61,317 nucleotides of DNA from an uncultured virus (IMG/VR IMGVR_UViG_2061766007_000892) (IMGVR_UViG_2061766007_000892), one strand, 5' to 3'; positions 5,549 through 28,475 are shown, counted from the first letter of the stretch. The notes: a model not told the origin generated them from the letters alone. Numbers and translations: made by a program.

Positions 5549-5610
5549 TGGCAGGCGTGGCTGGATTTGAACCANNNNNNNNNNTGCCTTTACCACTTGG
5601 CTACACGCCT
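5549..5610 (-). tRNA. tRNA, anticodon in N gap (Gln-like)
   Basis: AGGCGTG/CACGCCT-G-CCA, D arm GCCAAGTGGTAAAGGC, T loop TTCAAAT. Confidence 0.8.
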
Positions 5611-10129: not shown

Positions 10130-10729
10130 ATACCCTATTTAATAAAACCGTTGCGACCTTCGCCGTACTTGTATTATCCTTCTAACATATTCAGCTACGT
10201 TGAAGATGAAGGCTGAGCCAAAGGTAGCGACCCTTTAACTTCTTCACCCTGTCTTTCGACTACCAACGGAGAGATTGTCTACTCTCAAATTTCACTCAAA
10301 CCATTCAGCAAATTCTTCAATAATAAATCAAATATTTTCTATTTGTTCTAATACCAAGAACTTGTTGTCACTTTAAGCTACTTTTACCGCAAACCTCACT
10401 TATAGCCTATTTCTAGGTTTCAACGACAATAGCACCTTATTGGTCTTTCCTAGGTTTGATACAGTCACCAGCTAAACCCTAACTAGGATTCAGTCTACGC
10501 TTTTAACGCTTGACTTCTATTATGATGCCGTGAGGAATCGTGCTTTTGTTAGCGGATAACCAAGCGCCTACCCTTAACATTCGGAGTTTCTCCTTATCGC
10601 TAATCATTACTGATTTTGCGGCCACGATTTGGTAGTATCCCGCCAAACCGTATGGCTGTTGTTCAGGTAGCCCAAGCAGAGTGGTTAACTCTTCTTCACT
10701 TGGTTCAACCATTTTATTAAATAGGGTAT
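10130..10729 (-). ncRNA. large ornate ncRNA candidate (ROOL/GOLLD-like, ~600 nt)
   Basis: Terminal helix ATACCCTATTTAATAAAA/TTTTATTAAATAGGGTAT, many internal hairpins, own promoter, inside tRNA array. Confidence 0.65.
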
Positions 10730-11357: not shown

Positions 11358-11434
11358 TGGTGGGGAAGGAGAGAGTCGAACTCTCAAAACCTGCGTTCTA
11401 AGCGCAGTACCTATGCCAATTCGGTTACAACCCC
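11358..11434 (-). tRNA. tRNA-Leu(TAG), short variable arm, two U-U pairs in acceptor stem
   Basis: GGGGTTG/CTTCCCC-A-CCA; CTGCG-CTTAGAA-CGCAG. Confidence 0.85.
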
Positions 11435-12324: not shown

Positions 12325-12406
12325 ATTTACCGCCTCCTTCTATTAATAGGTGCGGTTTCGGCAGACGTATTATTTTATTTTCTTTCAGTCTGCTATTTTT
12401 TTTAAT

Positions 12407-12483
12407 TGGTCGCGCACCTCAGATTTGAACTGAGATTGAACGCATTTTGAGTGCGCTTCCGTTGCCAATTAGGATAGTGCGCG
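12407..12483 (-). tRNA. tRNA-Leu(CAA), short variable arm
   Basis: GCGCA-CTCAAAA-TGCGT; CGCGCAC/GTGCGCG-ACCA. Confidence 0.88.
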
Positions 12484-12484
12484 A

Positions 12485-12610
12485 TGGTGCCGGCGAGTGG
12501 ATTCGAACCACCACTGAACAGATTTTAATGGTGGGCGATACGAGTGCTGCCCTCGCATAATGTCACTGGACATCGCTCGTCTGTTGCCTCTGCCGTTGGG
12601 CTACGCCGGC
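12485..12610 (-). tRNA. tRNA-Leu(TAA) interrupted by a 50-nt insert between C32 and U33
   Basis: Removing 12529-12578 gives a perfect 76-nt cloverleaf with ACAGA-CTTAAAA-TCTGT. Confidence 0.88.
12529..12578 (-). ncRNA. nested mini-tRNA (acceptor + T arm + ACCA) acting as intron
   Basis: GAGCGAT/ATCGCCC-ACCA; T arm GCGAG-GGCAGCA-CTCGT; small GTC-CAGT-GAC hairpin. Confidence 0.8.
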
Positions 12611-13031
12611 ATAAATGGCGATTTTTATCGTTGTTCGCCACAACCGTAGGCCATATGTCCTACTTCTAGGTGGACCAGGGTATTTCTACCAGCCCAATGT
12701 AAGTTTTCTTTTCTGGTTTGCGGTTACACTTACAACCCACAACAAGCTCCATTATCTACTCCATACCAGAAGAATAGTAATTTCATCGCTTATGCCGCGC
12801 ATCTTGTGCAGGGCTGCCGAATACGCTTTCACGTATTCTAAAACTCCTTGTACACTTGGTACATGAGATAGCGGTGCCGGCATTCTATTGGCCGCAATTT
12901 GTCTGCTTATACCGGCTAGTTNNNNNNNNNNNNNNNNNNNNNNNNNTCCAAGAAGAAGAAAATACAGTACGAGAAATCTTACGCACAATTATCATCCTTT
13001 CCTTGTTTCTATAACTATTATATCATAATTT

Positions 13032-16910: not shown

Positions 16911-17128
16911 GTATTTTCATTTATGATTTCTAGAAGTTCTTCATCAGAAAGGACATCAAAACATTCATATATCTTTGCTTCAATTACATTGTCCTTTCCA
17001 AAATAATCATAAAGACGGTCTACATGATTGCCAATGGTGCCTTGAATAGATACAAGACCACGTTCATGCTTGCGCTCGTCAGTATCTTCGTCCCAATAAT
17101 CAATTTCATATCTTACCATATTATACAA
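16907..17128 (-). CDS. hypothetical protein
   Basis: 73-aa ORF coupled to RNA ligase. Confidence 0.6.
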   Translation of the reverse strand: MYNMVRYEIDYWDEDTDERKHERGLVSIQGTIGNHVDRLYDYFGKDNVIEAKIYECFDVLSDEELLEIINENT

Positions 17129-17750
17129 GCTCCTTCATATCTTCCCACTTGATTTTAACAATTACACGCTCACCACAGCGATTGCGCAATTCAATCATAG
17201 GACGACAAACGATGCCTTCCATTTCACGCTCTTCTTCTGCGATTACAGAATTGGGGTGGGTTTTTACATACTCTTCCGCGGCATATAGACTGCCAGTGCC
17301 AACAATAGGAACGGCTTTAATTCCAAACATCTTGGCAGTTTCCTCTACCCATTCGCGCGCCTGATAGTTATCACCAATAAGCACATCAAAGAGGATAAAA
17401 TCTACGCCATTGGAAATATACTTTCCGCCACCCTTCTGAATCTTGCGGCCATAACCTTCACCGAAAAGAATAACTTCTTTCTCACCGAAAGCCTGCTCAA
17501 AAATCTGAGCGTTAGTTTCACCGCCAAACAACTCGTTCAAACGAGTAACAAGTTCTGCGGGAATAGCGGCATTATCGGTGCGGCCGCCAAAGGTTACAGT
17601 ATGGCCATCCCAACATACACGGATATTGGTGCCATCAACCTTTTCAGTCCAAATCCAGTTATTATCGCTGAGATATTCTACAGTCGGGTCACGGAAAATA
17701 CCGGGANNNNNNNNNNNNNNNNNNNNNNNNNNNNNNNNNNNNNNNNNNAT
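17121..17750 (-). CDS. ATP-dependent RNA ligase (Rnl2-like adenylyltransferase domain)
   Basis: Frame extends upstream of ORF-track start: WTEKVDGTNIR (motif I), LFGEGYG (III), FILFDV (IIIa), EGIVCRP (IV), VKIK (V); start next to gap after GAAAGGA. Confidence 0.85.
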   Translation of the reverse strand, partial: XXXXXXXXXXXXXXXPGIFRDPTVEYLSDNNWIWTEKVDGTNIRVCWDGHTVTFGGRTDNAAIPAELVTRLNELFGGETNAQIFEQAFGEKEVILFGEGYGRKIQKGGGKYISNGVDFILFDVLIGDNYQAREWVEETAKMFGIKAVPIVGTGSLYAAEEYVKTHPNSVIAEEEREMEGIVCRPMIELRNRCGERVIVKIKWEDMKELV

Positions 17751-17778
17751 ATTTTATTCCTTTCTACTTACTATAATA

Positions 17779-17807
17779 ATTATATCAAAAATTATATGGT
17801 AAGTCAA
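17779..17807 (-). promoter_or_regulatory. sigma-A promoter for RNA ligase
   Basis: TTGACT-17-TATAAT. Confidence 0.8.
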
Positions 17808-17815
17808 ATATTTTA

Positions 17816-17974
17816 TCAATCTCCATAAGTACAATGATAACCAGAAAAATATGGGCATATTTTACAATGAAATTCAAACCAAGTATCTGCTTGCTCTCTT
17901 GACCACTCACCGCTTATTTCTTTTCGCCACATATCTTCATATCCATAACCGCAGTCTTCCCATACTTTTACCAT
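17816..17974 (-). CDS. small hypothetical protein
   Basis: MVKVWEDCG..., AGGAG RBS. Confidence 0.5.
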   Translation of the reverse strand: MVKVWEDCGYGYEDMWRKEISGEWSREQADTWFEFHCKICPYFSGYHCTYGD

Positions 17975-17975
17975 A

Positions 17976-18317
17976 CTAAATCTCCTTATATCCATAATGA
18001 GTAAGAAGTTGCCGCATATTTTCACGGCCGACTGGATTCATTGTATGAAGATGGAAACCTACAAGAGGAATATGATTTTCTACGATATACTTACAAATAT
18101 CATAACCAGATGGAGCAAGAGTGTCATCCATTTCATTACCTTCACCCAAATCGTGGTCAAGGTCTATAATTACATTGTTTATATCAGCCACACCCAACAT
18201 ATCAATGGTTTGCTGATAATCGCGGCAAATATAAGGAAGCCAATCATGACCAGCAAGATTTCGCTGATACCAAGTATCATCGTCACGAATATCATCTACA
18301 TAAATATAATAATTCAT
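17976..18317 (-). CDS. cyclic-phosphate-processing receiver-like (cREC) domain protein
   Basis: YVDDIR, IDLDHDLG, SGYDICKYI, HTMNPVGRENM. Confidence 0.75.
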   Translation of the reverse strand: MNYYIYVDDIRDDDTWYQRNLAGHDWLPYICRDYQQTIDMLGVADINNVIIDLDHDLGEGNEMDDTLAPSGYDICKYIVENHIPLVGFHLHTMNPVGRENMRQLLTHYGYKEI

Positions 18318-18520
18318 ATATCTATTCCAAACCAACTTTCTTCGCGCAGATAAGGACAGTTTTCAATATCACATTTTGGGACTTCAGGATTCATACGGCG
18401 CTTCTTCATGTCTGTTTCTTTACTTTTATAAAGTCTACATAGCCACCCATATTCGCAGCTATGATAGGAGAATAGACACTCACTTTTTTCTTTAGGTAAA
18501 CTCTCAACTATAATTCTCAT
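18314..18520 (-). CDS. hypothetical protein
   Basis: ORF with AGGAG RBS. Confidence 0.6.
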   Translation of the reverse strand: MRIIVESLPKEKSECLFSYHSCEYGWLCRLYKSKETDMKKRRMNPEVPKCDIENCPYLREESWFGIDI

Positions 18521-18531
18521 ATTTACTCCTT

Positions 18532-18789
18532 TTAAAATGCTATAATAAATTCTTNNNNNNNNNNNNNNNNNNNNNNNNNNNNNNNNNNNNNNNNNAATTC
18601 TTGATTGTCAGGAATATAAATGTGAACATAATCTCCTTCTCCATCAAAATCAATTCTTATGGCATCTAGCATTTCAATGCCATCTTTTTCTGGATTAGTA
18701 GAACCTGCTGCGATACAACATTCAATACAAGTGGGAATGCCTTCTAACACTGGTACCATACGTCCAATATCACCAAAGTACTTTGCCAT
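18532..18789 (-). CDS. hypothetical protein
   Basis: ORF with own promoter and RBS. Confidence 0.55.
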   Translation of the reverse strand: MAKYFGDIGRMVPVLEGIPTCIECCIAAGSTNPEKDGIEMLDAIRIDFDGEGDYVHIYIPDNQEXXXXXXXXXXXXXXXEFIIAF

Positions 18790-18866
18790 AATTTTATTTC
18801 CTTTCCTTTTCTATAAATATTATACTACAAATTTCATTTTTAGTCAAGAAAAAAGAAGATGAATTT

Positions 18867-19778
18867 TCATTCATCTTCTTCTTTCACTAAATATTCATCA
18901 CTAAATAACATTTCAAGAGTAATATTATCACGTTCCCAATATGGAATGCGAACGAGAGGAATGTTGTGAGAGAGGGCGTATTGATTTTTTTCTTTATCTG
19001 TATAAAGTTGTTGTTTGTATTTCTCTTCAGTGTTCCAACCACTTGTAAAATAATAGTGTTGTTCTCCGTCAAACTCAATTAAGCGAATTATATTATTATC
19101 TTTGTTTAATATAGCAAAATCATATTTATAATTTTTGTTATTTATATTTACTGAATANNNNNNNNNNNNNNNNNNNNNNNNTAAATTAATGTTCATATTG
19201 CCTATAGATCTAATACAACCACAAGATTTAGTATTTCCATTTATAAGATGGCTTCCTTCTATATCACATTCATTGCCGCAATCACACTTACAATGCCACA
19301 TAGAATGACCTCTAGAATCATTTTCAATACGATATAATACTATTAATTTATTAAAACGTTTTCCTTCTAATTCTAATGGCGTAATATTATATTTTTTAAT
19401 ATGCTTTGTTAATAAACATCCACAAGATTTAACTTGTCCTCGTTGTAAATCAATTCCTCTCACACTCGTAGTATTACCACATTCACATTGACAAATCCAA
19501 TAATTATTTTTTCTAATATTATCTTTTTCTAAAACTGTAAGCTTATTAAATTTTTGGCCCGTTAAATCTTTAATATTACTTTGGGATGCTCGCTCTTTTT
19601 GATAGCATCCACAAGATTTAGTTCGGCCATTTCTTAAATGTTCACCTTTTATAATACATGTGTTTCCACATTCGCAAATACAGGGCCAATACCAACTTTT
19701 ATTTCGTTTTTCTGGAACCGCATTTTCTAGAACAGTTAATCTATTCCATTTGGTTCCACGCATATCAATTCCTTTCAT
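18867..19778 (-). CDS. homing-type endonuclease: three G.KFN.LTV/W.C.C.CG/SCGC repeats plus Vsr/DUF559-like nuclease
   Basis: Repeats followed by YDFA...IEFDGEQH...LVRIPYW. Confidence 0.8.
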   Translation of the reverse strand: MKGIDMRGTKWNRLTVLENAVPEKRNKSWYWPCICECGNTCIIKGEHLRNGRTKSCGCYQKERASQSNIKDLTGQKFNKLTVLEKDNIRKNNYWICQCECGNTTSVRGIDLQRGQVKSCGCLLTKHIKKYNITPLELEGKRFNKLIVLYRIENDSRGHSMWHCKCDCGNECDIEGSHLINGNTKSCGCIRSIGNMNINLXXXXXXXXYSVNINNKNYKYDFAILNKDNNIIRLIEFDGEQHYYFTSGWNTEEKYKQQLYTDKEKNQYALSHNIPLVRIPYWERDNITLEMLFSDEYLVKEEDE

Positions 19779-19813
19779 TTTATCACCCTAAAAAGTGAGA
19801 TGAATTAATCATC

Positions 19814-21331
19814 TCACTTAATATTCTTATATCTCTCACTATTTAATTTATCCATCATAAGTGAGTATCCCGATTTTCCAGACATGACCATTTCAAAGAT
19901 TACTGGAGAACACCCAGATACATTTGTAACGTCAGGACCCACATCTAGAATAGTGGAATTTTTAGCATTTACGTTCCAGAAAATTAAGGAAGGCATTTTA
20001 TAACCATTCTGTGCGAACTTTTCTCGCATTTTATCCATAAACGTAAAAGTATTACCATTATGAGAATAATAGCCCTGTGCTGCATCCACTTGCATATCTG
20101 AAATTACCACAATACTTTCTGGCATATCTGTCTGAGTAAGATGGTAATTACGTGCAGTTCTCAAGACTAATTCAAATACGTCTTGAAAATTGGTATTCTC
20201 GCAAAGATTCGTCTTTACGATACGATCAACCTTATCGCAGAAATCTACTCCATGAGTCTCAATAAACTTCGCCGTGCGGCTGAAGCTGATATAAGAATTC
20301 GCGAAAGGCCCTTTATTACGCTCTGCGGCATAAAGAGCAAGAGAAACTGCGACATCAATGGGAGCAACGCTACCAGCGCCTGAACACATACTTCCGCTTG
20401 TATCGGCGACAACAAGGGCATTTAGGGACATGCCATGGAAGTAATCAGTTAGATTCTCCCAATACTTGTTAATCATCAGACGGTCGGTGTTGTCAAGGGC
20501 GACATTACTGCCACGGCCATACCAGCTATAGTCTGAGCCCATAAGCTTAATGGCCTTAGCAACCACATCATAAGGATATAGTGCGGCTGCATTAACCTTG
20601 GTAGAGGTATTCTTAGCAAACGCTTCATACTTCGCCTTGATTAGATCACGGCGAGCAAAGGCGTTCTTATAAATCAGGCCAGCACGAGAAGGAATCTTGT
20701 CAAATTCAATCTCATTCCACCGATTTGCAGACATAAGACGCTCTAGCACACGAATACGCTCACGAAGGTTAGAAAGCAGTACACGGTACTGACGAGAAGT
20801 TAGGCCCATGGTGTGGGCAGTTAGACGTCCATAACGCTTAGTCTTGGCAGAAGAAGCGTTCTCGGAAGCCGCCCACTTACCGGCAAGGGAAATAGCACCC
20901 TTGGTCTTGTAATCAAGGGCAAGCTGCTTGCCAAGAGCATAGAGAGCCTCATGCTCGCAGGAAGTCCCTACGAGAGCGTATAGGTCATCCCAGCGGCCAT
21001 ACTCGGCAATCTGGTCAAGATTGCGCAGTACGGCATTGCGGTCATAATCCGCAAGCCAATGCAGACAAGTGCGGAAAAAACGACGCTCGCCCTGTCCGCC
21101 GCGAATGTCACGAATATAGAATAGGCACTTTAGGGCATACATAGGACTCTCCTGATATGCCTCCTTGAATAGAAGCACGCAGTCGCTCTCGGTGCGCTGA
21201 CGATAAGCCGCACCGAAAGAGAATAGGTCGTATAGCTTAGAGCTAGTCGTGGTGCGCGCGACAGCACCATTCTCGGTGGTCTTGTAGGTGTTCTGAGAAG
21301 CCATAGCATTGTAAAGACGATTCATAGACAT
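19814..21331 (-). CDS. TROVE-like/vWA protein (DUF2828, Ro60-related)
   Basis: TENGA, RDIRGGQGER, EYGRWDDL, LAGKW, MIDAS DTSGSM, ISDMQ, FWNVN, VSGCSP. Confidence 0.85.
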   Translation of the reverse strand: MSMNRLYNAMASQNTYKTTENGAVARTTTSSKLYDLFSFGAAYRQRTESDCVLLFKEAYQESPMYALKCLFYIRDIRGGQGERRFFRTCLHWLADYDRNAVLRNLDQIAEYGRWDDLYALVGTSCEHEALYALGKQLALDYKTKGAISLAGKWAASENASSAKTKRYGRLTAHTMGLTSRQYRVLLSNLRERIRVLERLMSANRWNEIEFDKIPSRAGLIYKNAFARRDLIKAKYEAFAKNTSTKVNAAALYPYDVVAKAIKLMGSDYSWYGRGSNVALDNTDRLMINKYWENLTDYFHGMSLNALVVADTSGSMCSGAGSVAPIDVAVSLALYAAERNKGPFANSYISFSRTAKFIETHGVDFCDKVDRIVKTNLCENTNFQDVFELVLRTARNYHLTQTDMPESIVVISDMQVDAAQGYYSHNGNTFTFMDKMREKFAQNGYKMPSLIFWNVNAKNSTILDVGPDVTNVSGCSPVIFEMVMSGKSGYSLMMDKLNSERYKNIK

Positions 21332-21395
21332 AATTTATTTTCTCCTTTTCATTTGGTCAGCCCTGGACTAGGGCTCGTTTCTTTCTTACAATATT

Positions 21396-21424
21396 ATTAT
21401 AGCAGAATTTTGAGTAAAAGTCAA
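21396..21424 (-). promoter_or_regulatory. sigma-A promoter for TROVE-like gene
   Basis: TTGACT-17-TATAAT. Confidence 0.8.
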
Positions 21425-21425
21425 A

Positions 21426-21623
21426 TTATTTGTGATAGAATTTCCACATTCGTTTCTTTAAATGATTTAATTCACGCGAGGTAGCCAAATTTACAATTTC
21501 TGATTTCACTATTGTATCTGATGATATGATAGGAGCAGAATTTATCATTTCTTTCAACTCTTCATTAGTAATATCAGGAAGTTCTTCTGTCTTTTTCTTT
21601 CCAAAAATAAACGGTAGTCCCAT
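21426..21623 (-). CDS. hypothetical protein
   Basis: 65-aa ORF with RBS. Confidence 0.55.
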   Translation of the reverse strand: MGLPFIFGKKKTEELPDITNEELKEMINSAPIISSDTIVKSEIVNLATSRELNHLKKRMWKFYHK

Positions 21624-21632
21624 ATTTTCTCC

Positions 21633-22176
21633 TTATAGCATAGCAATACATTCGTTTGCTTTTGCTTCAATATCTGAAATAATTTCATCAAAGGATACTG
21701 GCGCATTGTTATGTGCGTCAAGTGCTACATTATACATAAAAGGAATGTCTTGATAAAACTTATTTTTTGAATGAGTATGGCCATGAAGATTTATTAGATG
21801 TTGCTTCAAAGGTGCCATATTTTCAAGATAGGAAGTCATAGTTGGATAGTGGGAAAGATAGAAATTAAAACCATTTATCTTTTGAACCGCGGCCCAACTA
21901 GTATGAAAATCACCACTTAAAGGAATCATATTAGTATTCTTATATAATTCACAACGGCTATCAGTGCAATGATTTCCGCGAATATAATAAATTTTTCCTT
22001 GGAGTTGATTTAATAATTTTATACCGCCTTCATTATTGTTTAACATTAAATCTCCTAATAGATAAATAGTGTCGGTATTTTTAATAGATTTATTCCAATT
22101 TTGTATGATAATNNNNNNNNNNNNNNNNNNNNNNNNNNNNNNNNNNNNNNNNNNNNNNNNNNNNCCAAATTGTCAT
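21633..22176 (-). CDS. calcineurin-like metallophosphoesterase (gap in N-terminus)
   Basis: MTIW..(gap)..QNWNKSI..IYLLGDL, RGNH, LSHYP, LHGHTH. Confidence 0.8.
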
Positions 22177-26529: not shown

Positions 26530-27343
26530 TGGCAGGAGTTGAAGGATTTGAACCTTCACCAACGGTTTCCATCTAAAATGCTTTAAAGTAAATTCCATTC
26601 CTTATCTGTATATTTTTTTATTTCTCCTGTTTTACGAGGAAGATTATATTTATCACACCATTTACGAACGGCATTATCACTAACACCAAATTGTTTTCCA
26701 ATTTGAGTAAATGGAATTTCTCTAATTAATTGTTTCAACACAAAACGTTCCGGAATATTTTTACTTTTTTCTTTATTTCTACAAGATAAACATTTTATTG
26801 CTCCATAAGAAATTTCACATCCGCAATCTTCACAGTAATATTTACCTGTATGACTAGAATTATATAATTCTTCATCTGCTAATCGTTCATATCCACTTAA
26901 AATATTGGAAATTAAATAAGTATCATCATCAAATTTTATTGTTTTAATTAAAGACGTTTCATCTACTGGTATTAAATATACTTTATCTTTCCATACTGTA
27001 GCGAAATAATCAATTTCTTCGTTGGTATATTTATGTTTAGCTTTTGTAGAACTTCTTACATTTTGTGTAGTGCAAGGAAAAGAAAAAGATGAATTAGAAT
27101 TACTAATAGATTTTTTAATTTGTATACGAAGTAGTTCTCTTCCTGTATCTACAATTAAATCGTACTTTGATGCATTATATGAAGGAATAGAAATATCAAA
27201 TCCATATCGTAGTAATTCTTCTTGTACTTTTAATTCAATAATTTGCCCTTTAATTAAATTCTCATTAAGCATGTTTCACCATTATGGAATTAAATTAAAG
27301 TTTTCAGATGGAGACCAGTATGCTGCCATTACACCAAACTCCT
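26530..27343 (-). tRNA. tRNA-Trp(CCA) split by a 740-nt intron (26569-27308) after the anticodon
   Basis: 5' exon AGGAGTT-TG-GTGTAATGGCAGCAT-ACTGGT-CTCCA; 3' exon AAACCGT-TGGT-GAAGG-TTCAAAT-CCTTC-AACTCCT-GCCA. Confidence 0.88.
26583..27272 (-). CDS. intron-encoded PD-(D/E)XK homing endonuclease (I-Ssp6803I-like) with C-terminal Zn ribbon/HTH
   Basis: KGQIIELKV, YDLIVD..RIQIKK, Y...IDYFA; CEDCG..CLSC; IGKQFGVSDNAVRKWC. Confidence 0.85.
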   Translation of the reverse strand: MLNENLIKGQIIELKVQEELLRYGFDISIPSYNASKYDLIVDTGRELLRIQIKKSISNSNSSFSFPCTTQNVRSSTKAKHKYTNEEIDYFATVWKDKVYLIPVDETSLIKTIKFDDDTYLISNILSGYERLADEELYNSSHTGKYYCEDCGCEISYGAIKCLSCRNKEKSKNIPERFVLKQLIREIPFTQIGKQFGVSDNAVRKWCDKYNLPRKTGEIKKYTDKEWNLL

Positions 27344-28398: not shown

Positions 28399-28475
28399 TG
28401 GTATCCCACCCGAGATTTGAACTCGGAGAAACTAGAACCTTAATCTAGCGTGTATGCCAATTCCACCAGTGGGAC
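28399..28475 (-). tRNA. tRNA-Leu(AAG), short variable arm
   Basis: CTAGA-TTAAGGT-TCTAG; ACCA. Confidence 0.88.

What the first reader, a model, noticed from the sequence alone, without database searches (positions are those of the whole stretch)
12485..12610. tRNA inside a tRNA: tRNA-Leu(UAA) anticodon loop interrupted by a 50-nt mini-tRNA ending in ACCA
Seen: deleting 12529-12578 restores an exact 76-nt tRNA-Leu with loop CU-UAA-AA. The insert (GAGCGAT-GTCCAGTGAC-ATTAT-GCGAG-GGCAGCA-CTCGT-ATCGCCC-ACCA) is itself an acceptor stem, T arm, discriminator and CCA. Its T loop GGCAGCA is identical to that of this phage's tRNA-Cys. The insert boundaries coincide exactly with a mature tRNA 5' end and CCA end. 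Established: RNase P recognises the acceptor/T-arm/CCA minihelix and leaves a 3'-OH upstream, 3' endonucleolytic processing can leave a 5'-P downstream, and Rnl-type ligases join 3'-OH to 5'-P. Inference: this is an intron excised by ordinary tRNA end-processing enzymes and sealed by the phage ligase (17121-17750), with no ribozyme or EndA. It could make tRNA-Leu(UAA) supply depend on the ligase, or hide the anticodon from nucleases.
Basis: partly seen in the sequence, partly recalled or inferred. Interest (0 to 1): 0.92.

Follow-up and report, generated by a model that had tools for sequence, protein, structure and literature searches.

The report
Mini-tRNA intron inside phage tRNA-Leu
A rumen phage's only leucine tRNA for the UUA codon is split in its anticodon loop by a 50-base miniature tRNA, one member of a conserved family whose ends always match a tRNA's own 5' and CCA ends, which suggests a new way of cutting introns out of tRNAs.

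Summary
On the minus strand, 12610..12485 is a tRNA with anticodon UAA, split after C32 by a 50-nt insert (12578..12529). The insert has a 7-bp acceptor-like stem, a 3-bp hairpin, a 5-bp T-like arm and ACCA.

It is not a one-off or an assembly artefact. I found 26 distinct nested copies (20 distinct inserts) in viral and metagenome contigs.
- Hosts: 24 tRNA-Leu(UAA) and 2 CUA suppressor tRNAs.
- Insertion points: three (32|33, 34|35, 35|36).
- In 26 of 26, the start that best pairs with the 7 nt before ACCA is the start whose removal restores a 7-nt anticodon loop.
- The three helices covary (13 of 15 pairs; 94.6% of cells paired, against 64% when shuffled).
- Related phages carry longer NCCA-ended inserts in Ile, Lys, Gln and Asn tRNAs. 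One of these is itself a predicted CUA suppressor tRNA.

Enzymology is inferred only: RNase P at the 5' cut, an unknown cut after CCA, then ligase sealing. The phage RNA ligase sits in a heal-and-seal repair module and is not specific to intron carriers.

Closest precedent: the unexplained "enigmatic" tRNA introns of Lak megaphages (2019), which this scan also noted earlier on other DNA.

The parts
12485..12610 (-). Interrupted tRNA gene, anticodon UAA (Leu by anticodon). It is 76 nt after removal of the insert, has a short variable loop, discriminator A and an encoded CCA.
   Evidence: Rfam tRNA 40.9 bits. ARAGORN with introns allowed: tRNA-Leu(taa) i(33,50). Spliced in silico: tRNA-Leu(taa), 76 nt.
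12579..12610 (-). 5' exon (32 nt): acceptor 5' strand, D arm, anticodon-stem 5' strand ACAGA, and C32.
   Evidence: Read; pairs checked.
12529..12578 (-). 50-nt intervening mini-tRNA lacking an anticodon arm.
   Evidence: covariation of its three helices; model R1.
12572..12578 (-). Mini-tRNA acceptor-like stem, 5' strand (GAGCGAT).
   Evidence: Pairs with 12533-12539 at 6 of 7 positions. All 7 pairs of this helix show changes on both sides across 20 inserts.
12562..12571 (-). Small hairpin GUC-CAGU-GAC, a candidate stand-in for the D arm.
   Evidence: CCAGTG is invariant in 20 of 20 inserts, including L002 and L006, which were found by protein homology rather than by a DNA pattern. 2 of its 3 pairs covary.
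12540..12556 (-). T-like arm GCGAG-GGCAGCA-CUCGU, directly abutting the acceptor 3' strand (12-bp stacked minihelix geometry).
   Evidence: unique in the window. 4 of 5 pairs covary. The same arm is the T arm of full-length odd tRNAs in other phages.
12533..12539 (-). Mini-tRNA acceptor-like stem, 3' strand (AUCGCCC).
12529..12532 (-). Discriminator A plus CCA. The last A is the last intron base.
   Evidence: ACCA is invariant in 20 of 20 inserts, but the search patterns required it, except for L002, L006 and L008.
12485..12528 (-). 3' exon (44 nt): UUAAAA, anticodon-stem 3' strand UCUGU, variable loop, T arm, acceptor 3' strand, ACCA.
12407..12483 (-). Next gene downstream: uninterrupted tRNA-Leu(CAA), 1 nt after the interrupted gene.
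12649..12791 (-). Structured RNAs just upstream: drum RNA (12696-12791) and a DUF3800-XI-like motif (12649-12696, below the gathering score).
   Evidence: drum 54.1 bits; 34.1 bits against a gathering score of 37.8.
17121..17705 (-). RNA ligase, readable part; the start of the gene is masked (N at 17707-17748). Candidate sealing enzyme.
   Evidence: PF09414 at 62.9 bits against a cut-off of 27; PHROG 548 'RNA ligase'; EKVDGTN motif read from the sequence.
17976..18335 (-). cRec (cyclic-phosphate-processing receiver) domain protein next to the ligase.
   Evidence: PF20274 at 64.5 bits. Predicted role taken from PMC7824862 passages.
19814..21331 (-). TROVE-like RNA-binding protein (DUF2828 + DUF7788) of the same module.
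   Evidence: PHROG 850 'RNA-binding protein'.
21633..22046 (-). Phosphoesterase-like protein of the same module.
   Evidence: PHROG 547 'phosphoesterase', E 5.5e-23.

Best explanation
The 50 nt are a genuine intervening sequence of a new, mobile family. Each member is a miniature tRNA (7-bp acceptor stem stacked on a 5-bp T arm, a small hairpin in place of the D arm, no anticodon arm, 3' ACCA) nested in the anticodon loop of a phage tRNA.

Shown: what must be removed is set by the intron's own tRNA-like ends, not by the host tRNA.

Inferred mechanism:
1. The host's RNase P treats the mini-tRNA as a pre-tRNA and cuts at its first nucleotide. This leaves a 3'-OH on C32 of the 5' exon.
2. A second endonucleolytic cut falls exactly after the mini-tRNA's CCA. 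The enzyme is unknown; candidates are an RNase Z/BN-type activity that cuts after CCA, another host RNase, or a phage enzyme.
3. The two exons stay held together by the tRNA body. An RNA ligase, most likely the phage Rnl-type enzyme at 17121-17750, seals them and restores the loop CUUAAAA.
4. The released 50-mer has the ends of a mature tRNA.

Because excision depends only on the intron, it can sit at any loop position, which explains the three insertion points seen. The likely consequence is that supply of the phage's only UUA-reading (or, in relatives, amber-suppressing) tRNA depends on processing and ligation. Whether this is regulation, protection of the anticodon loop, or pure selfishness is open.
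For: - Real tRNA around a 50-nt insert.
- 26 distinct nested contexts and 20 distinct inserts from viral and metagenome contigs. Every true family member found is nested in a tRNA anticodon loop; none is free-standing.
- Boundary test: over 21 possible starts, the start that pairs best with the 7 nt before ACCA is unique in 26 of 26 contexts. It equals the start whose removal gives a 5-bp anticodon stem and a 7-nt loop.
- After removal ARAGORN of 26 as tRNAs (24 Leu-UAA, 2 CUA); before removal it of 26.
- Three insertion points: 32|33 (12 contexts), 34|35 (10) and 35|36 (4).
- Covariation: 94.6% of cells paired against 64.4 +/- 2.0 in shuffles (0 of 500 reach it). 13 of 15 pairs change on both sides. 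Slid controls give 30.5-41.8% paired.
- The T-stem 3' strand abuts the acceptor 3' strand in the alignment, as in a tRNA minihelix.
- Intron and host tRNA are uncoupled. The window's insert is 82% identical to L100's, yet sits at another site in a tRNA only 64% identical. The window's tRNA is 80% identical to L101's, which carries a 66%-identical insert at another site.
- Empty-site allele: L004 has an uninterrupted Leu(UAA) in the same upstream context. L005 has a similar tRNA body with an insert.
- The rule extends to other inserts: tRNA-Ile(UAU) with 74- and 77-nt inserts, Lys(UUU) with 105 and 70 nt, Gln(UUG) with 43 nt, Asn(GUU) with 50 nt. Each runs from a 7-bp stem start to NCCA, and each yields a called tRNA on exact removal. 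The 77-nt insert of L006 is itself called a tRNA(CUA).
- In two records rated 100% complete, the interrupted genes are the only genes for their anticodons. G001 has 19 uninterrupted plus 2 interrupted tRNAs. G002 has 13 plus 3.
- No EndA (0 of 5) and no RtcB (0 of 5) in intron-bearing records. PF09414 ligase is over the cut-off in all 5 intron-bearing records rated at least 50% complete (of 8 in all), and in the window.
- Recalled, established: bacterial RNase P accepts acceptor/T-arm minihelices with 3' RCCA and leaves 3'-OH upstream and 5'-P downstream. Rnl-type ligases join 3'-OH to 5'-P.
Against: - No RNA evidence. Four metatranscriptome contig sets give zero cover on 12494-12607, although the neighbouring ROOL RNA is deeply covered.
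- The 3' cut is a gap in the model. As recalled, encoded CCA blocks the Bacillus-type RNase Z, and CCA-bearing precursors are usually finished by exonucleases. An exact endonucleolytic cut after CCA is known only for some RNase Z/BN enzymes.
- The ligase sits with cRec and phosphoesterase genes in the window, and beside an AAA_33 kinase in G005, G006 and G007. This points to cyclic-phosphate/5'-OH repair, not to RNase P-type ends.
- The ligase is also present in 8 of 15 comparison records without a strong R1 match. It was not found in G003 and G008 (43% and 10% complete) and is below the cut-off in G004.
- One relative (L005) ends in ACA/CAA instead of CCA.
- At the 34|35 sites and the two CUA-suppressor 35|36 sites, U(-1) could pair with discriminator A and might shift an RNase P cut (inference).
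- CCAGTGA, GGGCAGCAC and ACCA were required by the patterns that found most copies, so their invariance is partly circular. L002, L006 and L008 were not pattern-selected and keep CAGTG, RGCARCA and ACCA.
- Single-sequence thermodynamics does not favour the nested fold.
Confidence: 0.55

Rival explanations
1. It is a true intron, but it is cut out by a dedicated, still unknown phage or host endonuclease that leaves 2',3'-cyclic phosphate and 5'-OH ends. The mini-tRNA shape is only the recognition handle. The ends are then healed by the cRec/phosphoesterase and kinase enzymes and sealed by the Rnl-type ligase, a heal-and-seal pathway like T4 tRNA repair.
For: - The ligase lies in a module with cRec, a phosphoesterase and a TROVE-like protein.
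- cRec is present in 4 of 5 and an AAA_33 kinase in 5 of 5 intron-bearing records. The kinase lies within about 2.5 kb of the ligase in G005, G006 and G007.
- Iyer et al. 2021 (PMC7824862, passages) predict that cRec clears cyclic ends for ATP-dependent RNA ligases.
- This model removes the difficulty of an exact cut after CCA by ordinary 3' processing.
Against: - No candidate nuclease was identified. EndA is absent.
- It does not explain why both boundaries coincide exactly with the two ends that tRNA end-processing enzymes measure, or why a full-size functional-looking tRNA (L006) can take the intron's place.
- The repair module is equally explained by defence against anticodon nucleases.
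Confidence: 0.2
2. It is not spliced. A mobile mini-tRNA has inserted into and killed the tRNA gene. RNase P merely releases the mini-tRNA and tRNA halves, which may act as decoys or have no function.
For: - The insert behaves as mobile: the same insert lineage sits at different sites and in different tRNA bodies.
- There is no RNA evidence of splicing.
- One copy (L005) has lost CCA.
Against: - 26 of 26 host tRNAs keep a complete cloverleaf and an exact 7-nt loop after removal, across lineages whose tRNA bodies are only 53-80% identical to the window's.
- There are no target-site duplications or deletions at any of the three insertion points.
- The interrupted genes are the only genes for those anticodons in two complete genomes.
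- 6 of 10 Leu(UAA) genes in the related loci are interrupted.
Confidence: 0.12
3. Assembly chimera or chance resemblance.
For: None found. The best DNA holder may be the source sample.
Against: - Homologous nested inserts occur in contigs from many separate metagenome and viral records, and they covary.
- All 5 non-tRNA pattern hits have at most 4 of 7 acceptor pairs or no tRNA context.
Confidence: 0.01

Closest known systems
'Enigmatic' tRNA introns of Lak megaphages. Devoto et al. 2019, Nat Microbiol, PMC6784885 (I read the 'intron' passages and part of Table S6). Echoed for jumbo phages in PMC13037316 (one passage).
   Same: Both are phage tRNA genes interrupted in the anticodon loop by short non-ribozyme inserts that 'may encode a tRNA'. 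Presence and absence vary between close relatives. No mechanism has been given.
   Different: - Lak inserts are 79-141 nt and were predicted at or near 37/38.
- By my reading of Table S6, they begin with an extra hairpin before the tRNA-like part and do not end in CCA.
- Here the insert is only the tRNA-like unit (43-105 nt; 47-52 nt in this family). It starts at its acceptor stem, ends in NCCA, lacks an anticodon arm, and sits at 32|33, 34|35 or 35|36.
Archaeal/eukaryal protein-spliced tRNA introns (bulge-helix-bulge motif, EndA/TSEN, RtcB or Trl1 ligase); recalled.
   Same: A small protein-dependent intron in the anticodon loop. The exons are held by the tRNA body and joined by an RNA ligase. 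Non-canonical positions are known in archaea.
   Different: - There is no bulge-helix-bulge here. The two splice sites face each other at the base of the intron's own acceptor helix with a 4-nt ACCA overhang.
- EndA is absent from 5 of 5 records and RtcB from 5 of 5.
- The hosts are bacterial phages.
Group I self-splicing introns in bacterial and phage tRNA anticodon loops, classically tRNA-Leu(UAA) between U34 and A35 (recalled). One is present in a related record, L085/L129.
   Same: The same host gene (tRNA-Leu(UAA)) and, for 10 contexts, the same 34|35 position. Mobile.
   Different: The insert is 50 nt with no catalytic core. There is no Rfam group I or small-ribozyme match on the region even at E up to 10.
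T4 tRNA repair: PrrC anticodon nuclease countered by Pnkp and Rnl1 (recalled). Phage RNA-repair modules with cRec and TROVE (PMC7824862, passages).
   Same: A phage RNA ligase seals a break in a tRNA anticodon loop. The window carries a ligase-cRec-TROVE-phosphoesterase module.
   Different: Repair restores damage done by host nucleases. Here the break would be programmed in the gene, and two cuts release a defined RNA.
tRNA-like structures used as processing signals for RNase P and RNase Z: mascRNA from MALAT1, mitochondrial tRNA punctuation, bacterial Y-RNA tRNA-like modules (recalled; PMC4201824 seen in a search listing only).
   Same: A tRNA mimic embedded in a longer RNA recruits tRNA end-processing enzymes to make precise cuts.
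   Different: Those cases release products without rejoining the flanks. Here the flanks would be religated into a working tRNA.

Membership tests
tRNA (Rfam RF00005): the outer gene | Score over the family's gathering score with all four arms. | tested here: met
   40.9 bits against 29, model positions 1-71, insertion in the anticodon loop. ARAGORN calls Leu(taa) after removal.
tRNA (complete): the insert | Cloverleaf with an anticodon arm. | tested here: not met
   The insert is 50 nt with only a 3-bp/4-nt hairpin between the acceptor and T arms. ARAGORN finds nothing in the unspliced sequences. It works like the top half of a tRNA; it is not a tRNA.
Minimal bacterial RNase P substrate (acceptor/T-arm minihelix with 3' RCCA; definition recalled) | 7-bp acceptor helix continuous with a 5-bp T stem, a 7-nt T loop, and single-stranded RCCA at the 3' end. 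| tested here: met
   Alignment and covariation: helices 1-7/42-48 and 25-29/37-41 abut, the loop is 7 nt, and ACCA is present in 20 of 20 inserts.
Minimal bacterial RNase P substrate | Actual cleavage at the first acceptor nucleotide. | not testable with these tools
   Needs an in vitro or in vivo assay.
Group I intron | Catalytic core (P3-P9), Rfam RF00028. | tested here: not met
   No match on 12380-12720 at E up to 10. The family's gathering score was reached in a related locus, L085, which serves as a positive control.
Small self-cleaving ribozymes (hammerhead, twister, pistol, hatchet and others in Rfam) | Match to any family model. | tested here: not met
   No such family among the 7 matches at E up to 10.
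BHB/EndA-spliced intron | Splicing endonuclease (PF01974) available. | tested here: not met
   0 of 5 intron-bearing phage records, 2 of them complete. The controls matched in 4 archaea. The bacterial host was not examined.
BHB/EndA-spliced intron | Two 3-nt bulges separated by a 4-bp helix at the splice sites. | tested here: not met
   By inspection of the covarying structure, the splice sites lie at the base of a 7-bp intron helix, and the position varies among 32|33, 34|35 and 35|36. No formal motif search was run.
Lak-type phage tRNA introns (Devoto 2019) | Insert in the anticodon loop of a phage tRNA that contains a tRNA-like fold and varies in presence between relatives. | tested here: met
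Lak-type phage tRNA introns (Devoto 2019) | 5' hairpin extension before the tRNA-like part, no terminal CCA, 79-141 nt (my reading of Table S6). | tested here: not met
   Here the insert begins at the acceptor stem, ends in ACCA and is 47-52 nt.
Rnl-type ATP-dependent RNA ligase (PF09414) | Nucleotidyltransferase domain over the cut-off, with the lysine motif. | tested here: met
   62.9 bits against 27. KxDG-type motif EKVDGTN in the translation. The N-terminus is masked.

The most novel reading that the evidence does not exclude
This would be a third way to splice tRNAs, beside self-splicing group I introns and the BHB/EndA pathway. The intron is a protein-free, mobile 'tRNA-mimic' that hands its own excision to the universal tRNA end-processing enzymes: RNase P at its 5' end and a CCA-measuring endonuclease at its 3' end. 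An RNA ligase then reseals the anticodon loop. Because recognition lies wholly in the intron, it can land at any loop position and in any tRNA, and even a working suppressor tRNA can ride as the intron. It may spread at the RNA level by reversal of the same ligation. Phages may use it to gate their A/U-anticodon and amber-suppressor tRNAs.
Probability: 0.4. Interest if true: 0.92.

Novelty: new variant of a known kind. Interest (0 to 1): 0.85.

Why it matters
Bacteria and their phages were thought to have only self-splicing tRNA introns. The Lak megaphage introns of 2019 broke that picture, but they remain unexplained.

This family is the simplest form seen so far. The intron is nothing but a tRNA top half with CCA, and 26 of 26 copies at three loop positions obey one exact cutting rule. 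That turns an 'enigmatic' observation into a testable mechanism: RNase P plus a cut after CCA plus a ligase.

If confirmed, it would have four consequences:
- It would add a new splicing pathway.
- It would give phage RNA ligases a role beyond repair.
- It would suggest a switch for suppressor tRNAs in stop-codon-recoded phages.
- It would explain tRNA genes that standard tRNA finders miss. ARAGORN at default settings found 0 of 26.

Tried and rejected
- INPHARED phages, blastn 'distant' with 12380-12820: no match.
- Exact 30-mer of the 3' exon in viral contigs: 0 hits.
- 18-mer across the 3' junction: 2 hits, both chance matches in unrelated sequence.
- Genome contigs pattern scan: 2 hits, both GC-rich non-tRNA sequence, so there is no prophage or host lead.
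- Pattern hits L088, L094, L095, L119 and L120 were dropped as chance: at most 4 of 7 acceptor pairs or no tRNA context.
- RNA evidence: 4 metatranscriptome contig sets were laid. ROOL (10135-10727) and the region upstream of the tRNA are covered, but there is no cover on 12494-12607 and no joint at the intron. This says nothing either way.
- Weak R1 model hits in G009 and G011 lie in apparent coding sequence. Those in G021, G022, G023 and at G006:4947 match only the T arm of full-length odd tRNAs.
- Ligase co-occurrence is not discriminating, and nested inserts of other types were not censused in the comparison records.
- Single-sequence folding of the insert and of the whole precursor is not informative.
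- Group I model on the interrupted tRNA-Trp region: no hit.
- Literature searches found no paper proposing RNase P/CCA-defined splicing of phage tRNA introns. Borges et al. preprint: its 'intron' passages concern protein-gene introns only.
- The whole-genome tool had no genome for this window.

Full report
**What is there**

All genes in this part of the window lie on the minus strand. Read on that strand, 12610..12485 is a tRNA gene. It has:
- a 32-nt 5' exon ending ...ACAGA-C;
- a 50-nt insert (12578..12529);
- a 44-nt 3' exon beginning UUAAAA-UCUGU and ending ACCA.

Rfam's tRNA model scores it at 40.9 bits (gathering score 29) with the insert as a loop insertion. ARAGORN at default settings misses it (20 other tRNAs). 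With introns allowed, ARAGORN calls tRNA-Leu(taa) with a 50-nt intron at position 33.

The insert has four parts:
- a 7-bp stem, GAGCGAU/AUCGCCC, with one A.C mismatch;
- a hairpin, GUC-CAGU-GAC;
- a 5-nt linker followed by an arm, GCGAG-GGCAGCA-CUCGU, that abuts the 3' strand of the first stem;
- ACCA at the 3' end.

One supporting remark does not hold. No tRNA-Cys is found in the window, and the other four GGCAGCA sites are not T loops. About 2.6 kb of the window is masked for me, so a masked tRNA cannot be excluded.

**It is a family, not an accident**

The window has no match among deposited phages. A neighbouring PAPS-reductase-like gene brought in 76 related IMG/VR loci. Two of these carry inserts similar to the window's, inside quite different tRNA bodies.

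The insert's T-like arm also turned up as the T arm of full-length, unusual tRNAs in five other phage contigs (anticodon GUC, D loops rich in AGCAG). It also occurs in a CUA tRNA. The insert is therefore derived from a tRNA.

Pattern scans added further copies:
- viral contigs: 6 nested copies among 8 hits;
- metagenome contigs: 23 nested copies among 24 hits;
- one genome per prokaryote species: only 2 chance hits.

Together with the window and three copies found without any DNA pattern (L002, L006, L008), this gives 26 distinct contexts and 20 distinct inserts. Every true member is nested in an anticodon loop. The 5 remaining hits are GC-rich non-tRNA sequence and were dropped.

**The cutting rule**

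For each context I asked which of 21 possible start positions pairs best with the 7 nt before ACCA, ignoring the exons.
- In 26 of 26 the best start is unique.
- In 26 of 26 it is the start whose removal, together with everything up to the last A of CCA, leaves a 5-bp anticodon stem and a 7-nt loop.
- After removal ARAGORN of 26 as tRNAs (24 Leu-UAA, 2 with CUA, i.e. amber suppressors). Before removal it calls none.

The insertion point is not fixed. It is C32|U33 in 12 contexts (including the window), U34|A35 in 10, and position 35|36 in 4. So the thing to be removed is defined by the insert's own tRNA-like ends, not by a place in the host tRNA.

**Structure**

On the 20 distinct inserts, the three proposed helices are paired in 94.6% of cells. 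Shuffles give 64.4 +/- 2.0% (0 of 500 reach the observed value), and slid controls give 30.5-41.8%. Compensatory changes occur in 13 of 15 pairs.

The loops CAGUG and RGCARCA and the ACCA end are invariant. This is partly because the search patterns demanded them. However, L002, L006 and L008 were found by protein homology and keep them too.

Energy-based folding of the single sequence is uninformative.

**Mobility and function**

Insert and host tRNA evolve separately.
- The window's insert is 82% identical to L100's, but that one sits at 34|35 in a long-arm tRNA only 64% identical.
- The window's tRNA is 80% identical to L101's, which carries a 66%-identical insert at 34|35.

L004 has an uninterrupted Leu(UAA) in the same upstream context, while the similar tRNA of L005 is interrupted. 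Among the related loci, 6 of 10 Leu(UAA) genes are interrupted.

The same rule (stem start ... NCCA) holds for other inserts:
- tRNA-Ile(UAU): 74 and 77 nt;
- tRNA-Lys(UUU): 105 and 70 nt;
- tRNA-Gln(UUG): 43 nt, with a canonical T loop;
- tRNA-Asn(GUU): 50 nt.

The 77-nt insert in L006 is itself predicted as a complete tRNA(CUA).

In two records rated complete, the interrupted genes are the only genes for their anticodons. These points argue that the host tRNAs are meant to work.

**Mechanism**

Shown: the anatomy and the rule above.

Established (recalled):
- Bacterial RNase P cuts at the first nucleotide of an acceptor/T-arm minihelix with 3' RCCA. It leaves 3'-OH upstream and 5'-P downstream.
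- Rnl-type ligases join exactly such ends.

Inferred: RNase P makes the 5' cut, a second enzyme cuts after CCA, and a ligase seals the loop.

The window encodes a PF09414 RNA ligase (17121-17750, start masked). All 5 intron-bearing records that are at least 50% complete have one. EndA and RtcB are absent from those 5.

Against the simple version:
- An exact endonucleolytic cut after an encoded CCA is not ordinary bacterial 3' processing.
- In the window the ligase sits with cRec, phosphoesterase and TROVE-like genes. In three relatives a kinase lies beside it. Iyer et al. 2021 (passages) read such modules as repair of cyclic-phosphate/5'-OH breaks.
- The ligase also occurs in 8 of 15 comparison records without this intron family.
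- One relative ends in CAA rather than CCA.
- No RNA data bear on it.

My estimates:
- about 0.8 that this is a spliced intron;
- about 0.55 for the full RNase P / post-CCA cut / ligase model;
- about 0.2 for an unknown nuclease with heal-and-seal ligation;
- about 0.12 for an unspliced insertion.

**Comparison with what is known**

The nearest precedent is the set of 'enigmatic' tRNA introns of Lak megaphages. One of these 'may encode a tRNA' (Devoto et al. 2019; passages and Table S6). A 2026 jumbo-phage survey repeats the remark. This scan also noted the Lak type earlier on other DNA (e1-5959538).

By my reading of Table S6, the Lak inserts are longer, start with an extra hairpin and lack CCA. 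The present family is the bare tRNA top half with CCA, at variable non-canonical positions.

It is not a group I intron or a known small ribozyme, and it has no bulge-helix-bulge geometry. Five literature searches found no paper that proposes tRNA end-processing as the splicing machinery.

I therefore class it as a new variant of a known but unexplained kind, with a mechanism that can now be tested directly.

Noticed in passing
window 26530-27343 (minus strand): A second interrupted tRNA. tRNA-Trp(CCA) is split after ...CUCCA by about 740 nt that carry an AT-rich ORF (26583-27272). The ORF has a PD-(D/E)XK endonuclease domain (PF11645) and an HTH. ARAGORN and Rfam do not call this tRNA, and no group I intron model matches. 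The insert does not end in CCA.
   Followed up: partly
window 5552-5610 (minus strand): A free-standing short tRNA-like gene (Rfam tRNA 34.7 bits, 59 nt) right after tRNA-Gly. It has acceptor, D and T arms and GCCA, but apparently no room for an anticodon arm. 10 nt in its middle are masked.
   Followed up: no
L006 2643-2794 (G002) and L002 965-1113 (G001): tRNA-Ile(UAU) genes carrying 77- and 74-nt NCCA-ended inserts. The L006 insert is itself predicted as a tRNA with anticodon CUA (an amber suppressor), i.e. a working-looking tRNA nested in another tRNA.
   Followed up: partly
L079, L080, L081, L083, L085 (around position 340-430 of each) and L133 ~1460-1535: A class of full-length phage tRNAs with a non-canonical T loop GGCAGCA and D loops containing AGCAG(C)A. 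Their anticodons are GUC or CUA, and ARAGORN mostly misses them.
   Followed up: partly
window 10135-10727, 12696-12791, 12649-12696 (minus strand): ROOL RNA (333.8 bits), drum RNA (54.1 bits) and a DUF3800-XI-like motif lie among the tRNA genes. ROOL relatives are very deeply covered in sheep-gut and other gut metatranscriptome contigs.
   Followed up: partly
window 17121-22046 (minus strand): An RNA-repair-type module: RNA ligase, cRec domain protein, an HNH homing endonuclease inserted between them and the next gene (18867-19778), a TROVE-like RNA-binding protein, and a phosphoesterase.
   Followed up: partly
L085 505-692 / L129 1580-1861: A classical group I intron (Rfam 69.8 bits) in tRNA-Leu(UAA) of another large phage. 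The same host gene thus carries two unrelated intron types in different phages.
   Followed up: no
L005 7237-7360: A divergent Leu(UAA) insert with the same acceptor stem as L002 but a different interior. Its 3' end reads ACA/CAA instead of CCA, so it may be a decaying copy or an exception to the rule.
   Followed up: partly
window 11358-11434, 12407-12483, 28399-28475: All three uninterrupted 'Leu' tRNAs of the window (UAG, CAA, AAG) are 77 nt with short variable loops, unlike the long-arm bacterial tRNA-Leu. Their charging identity is therefore uncertain.
   Followed up: no
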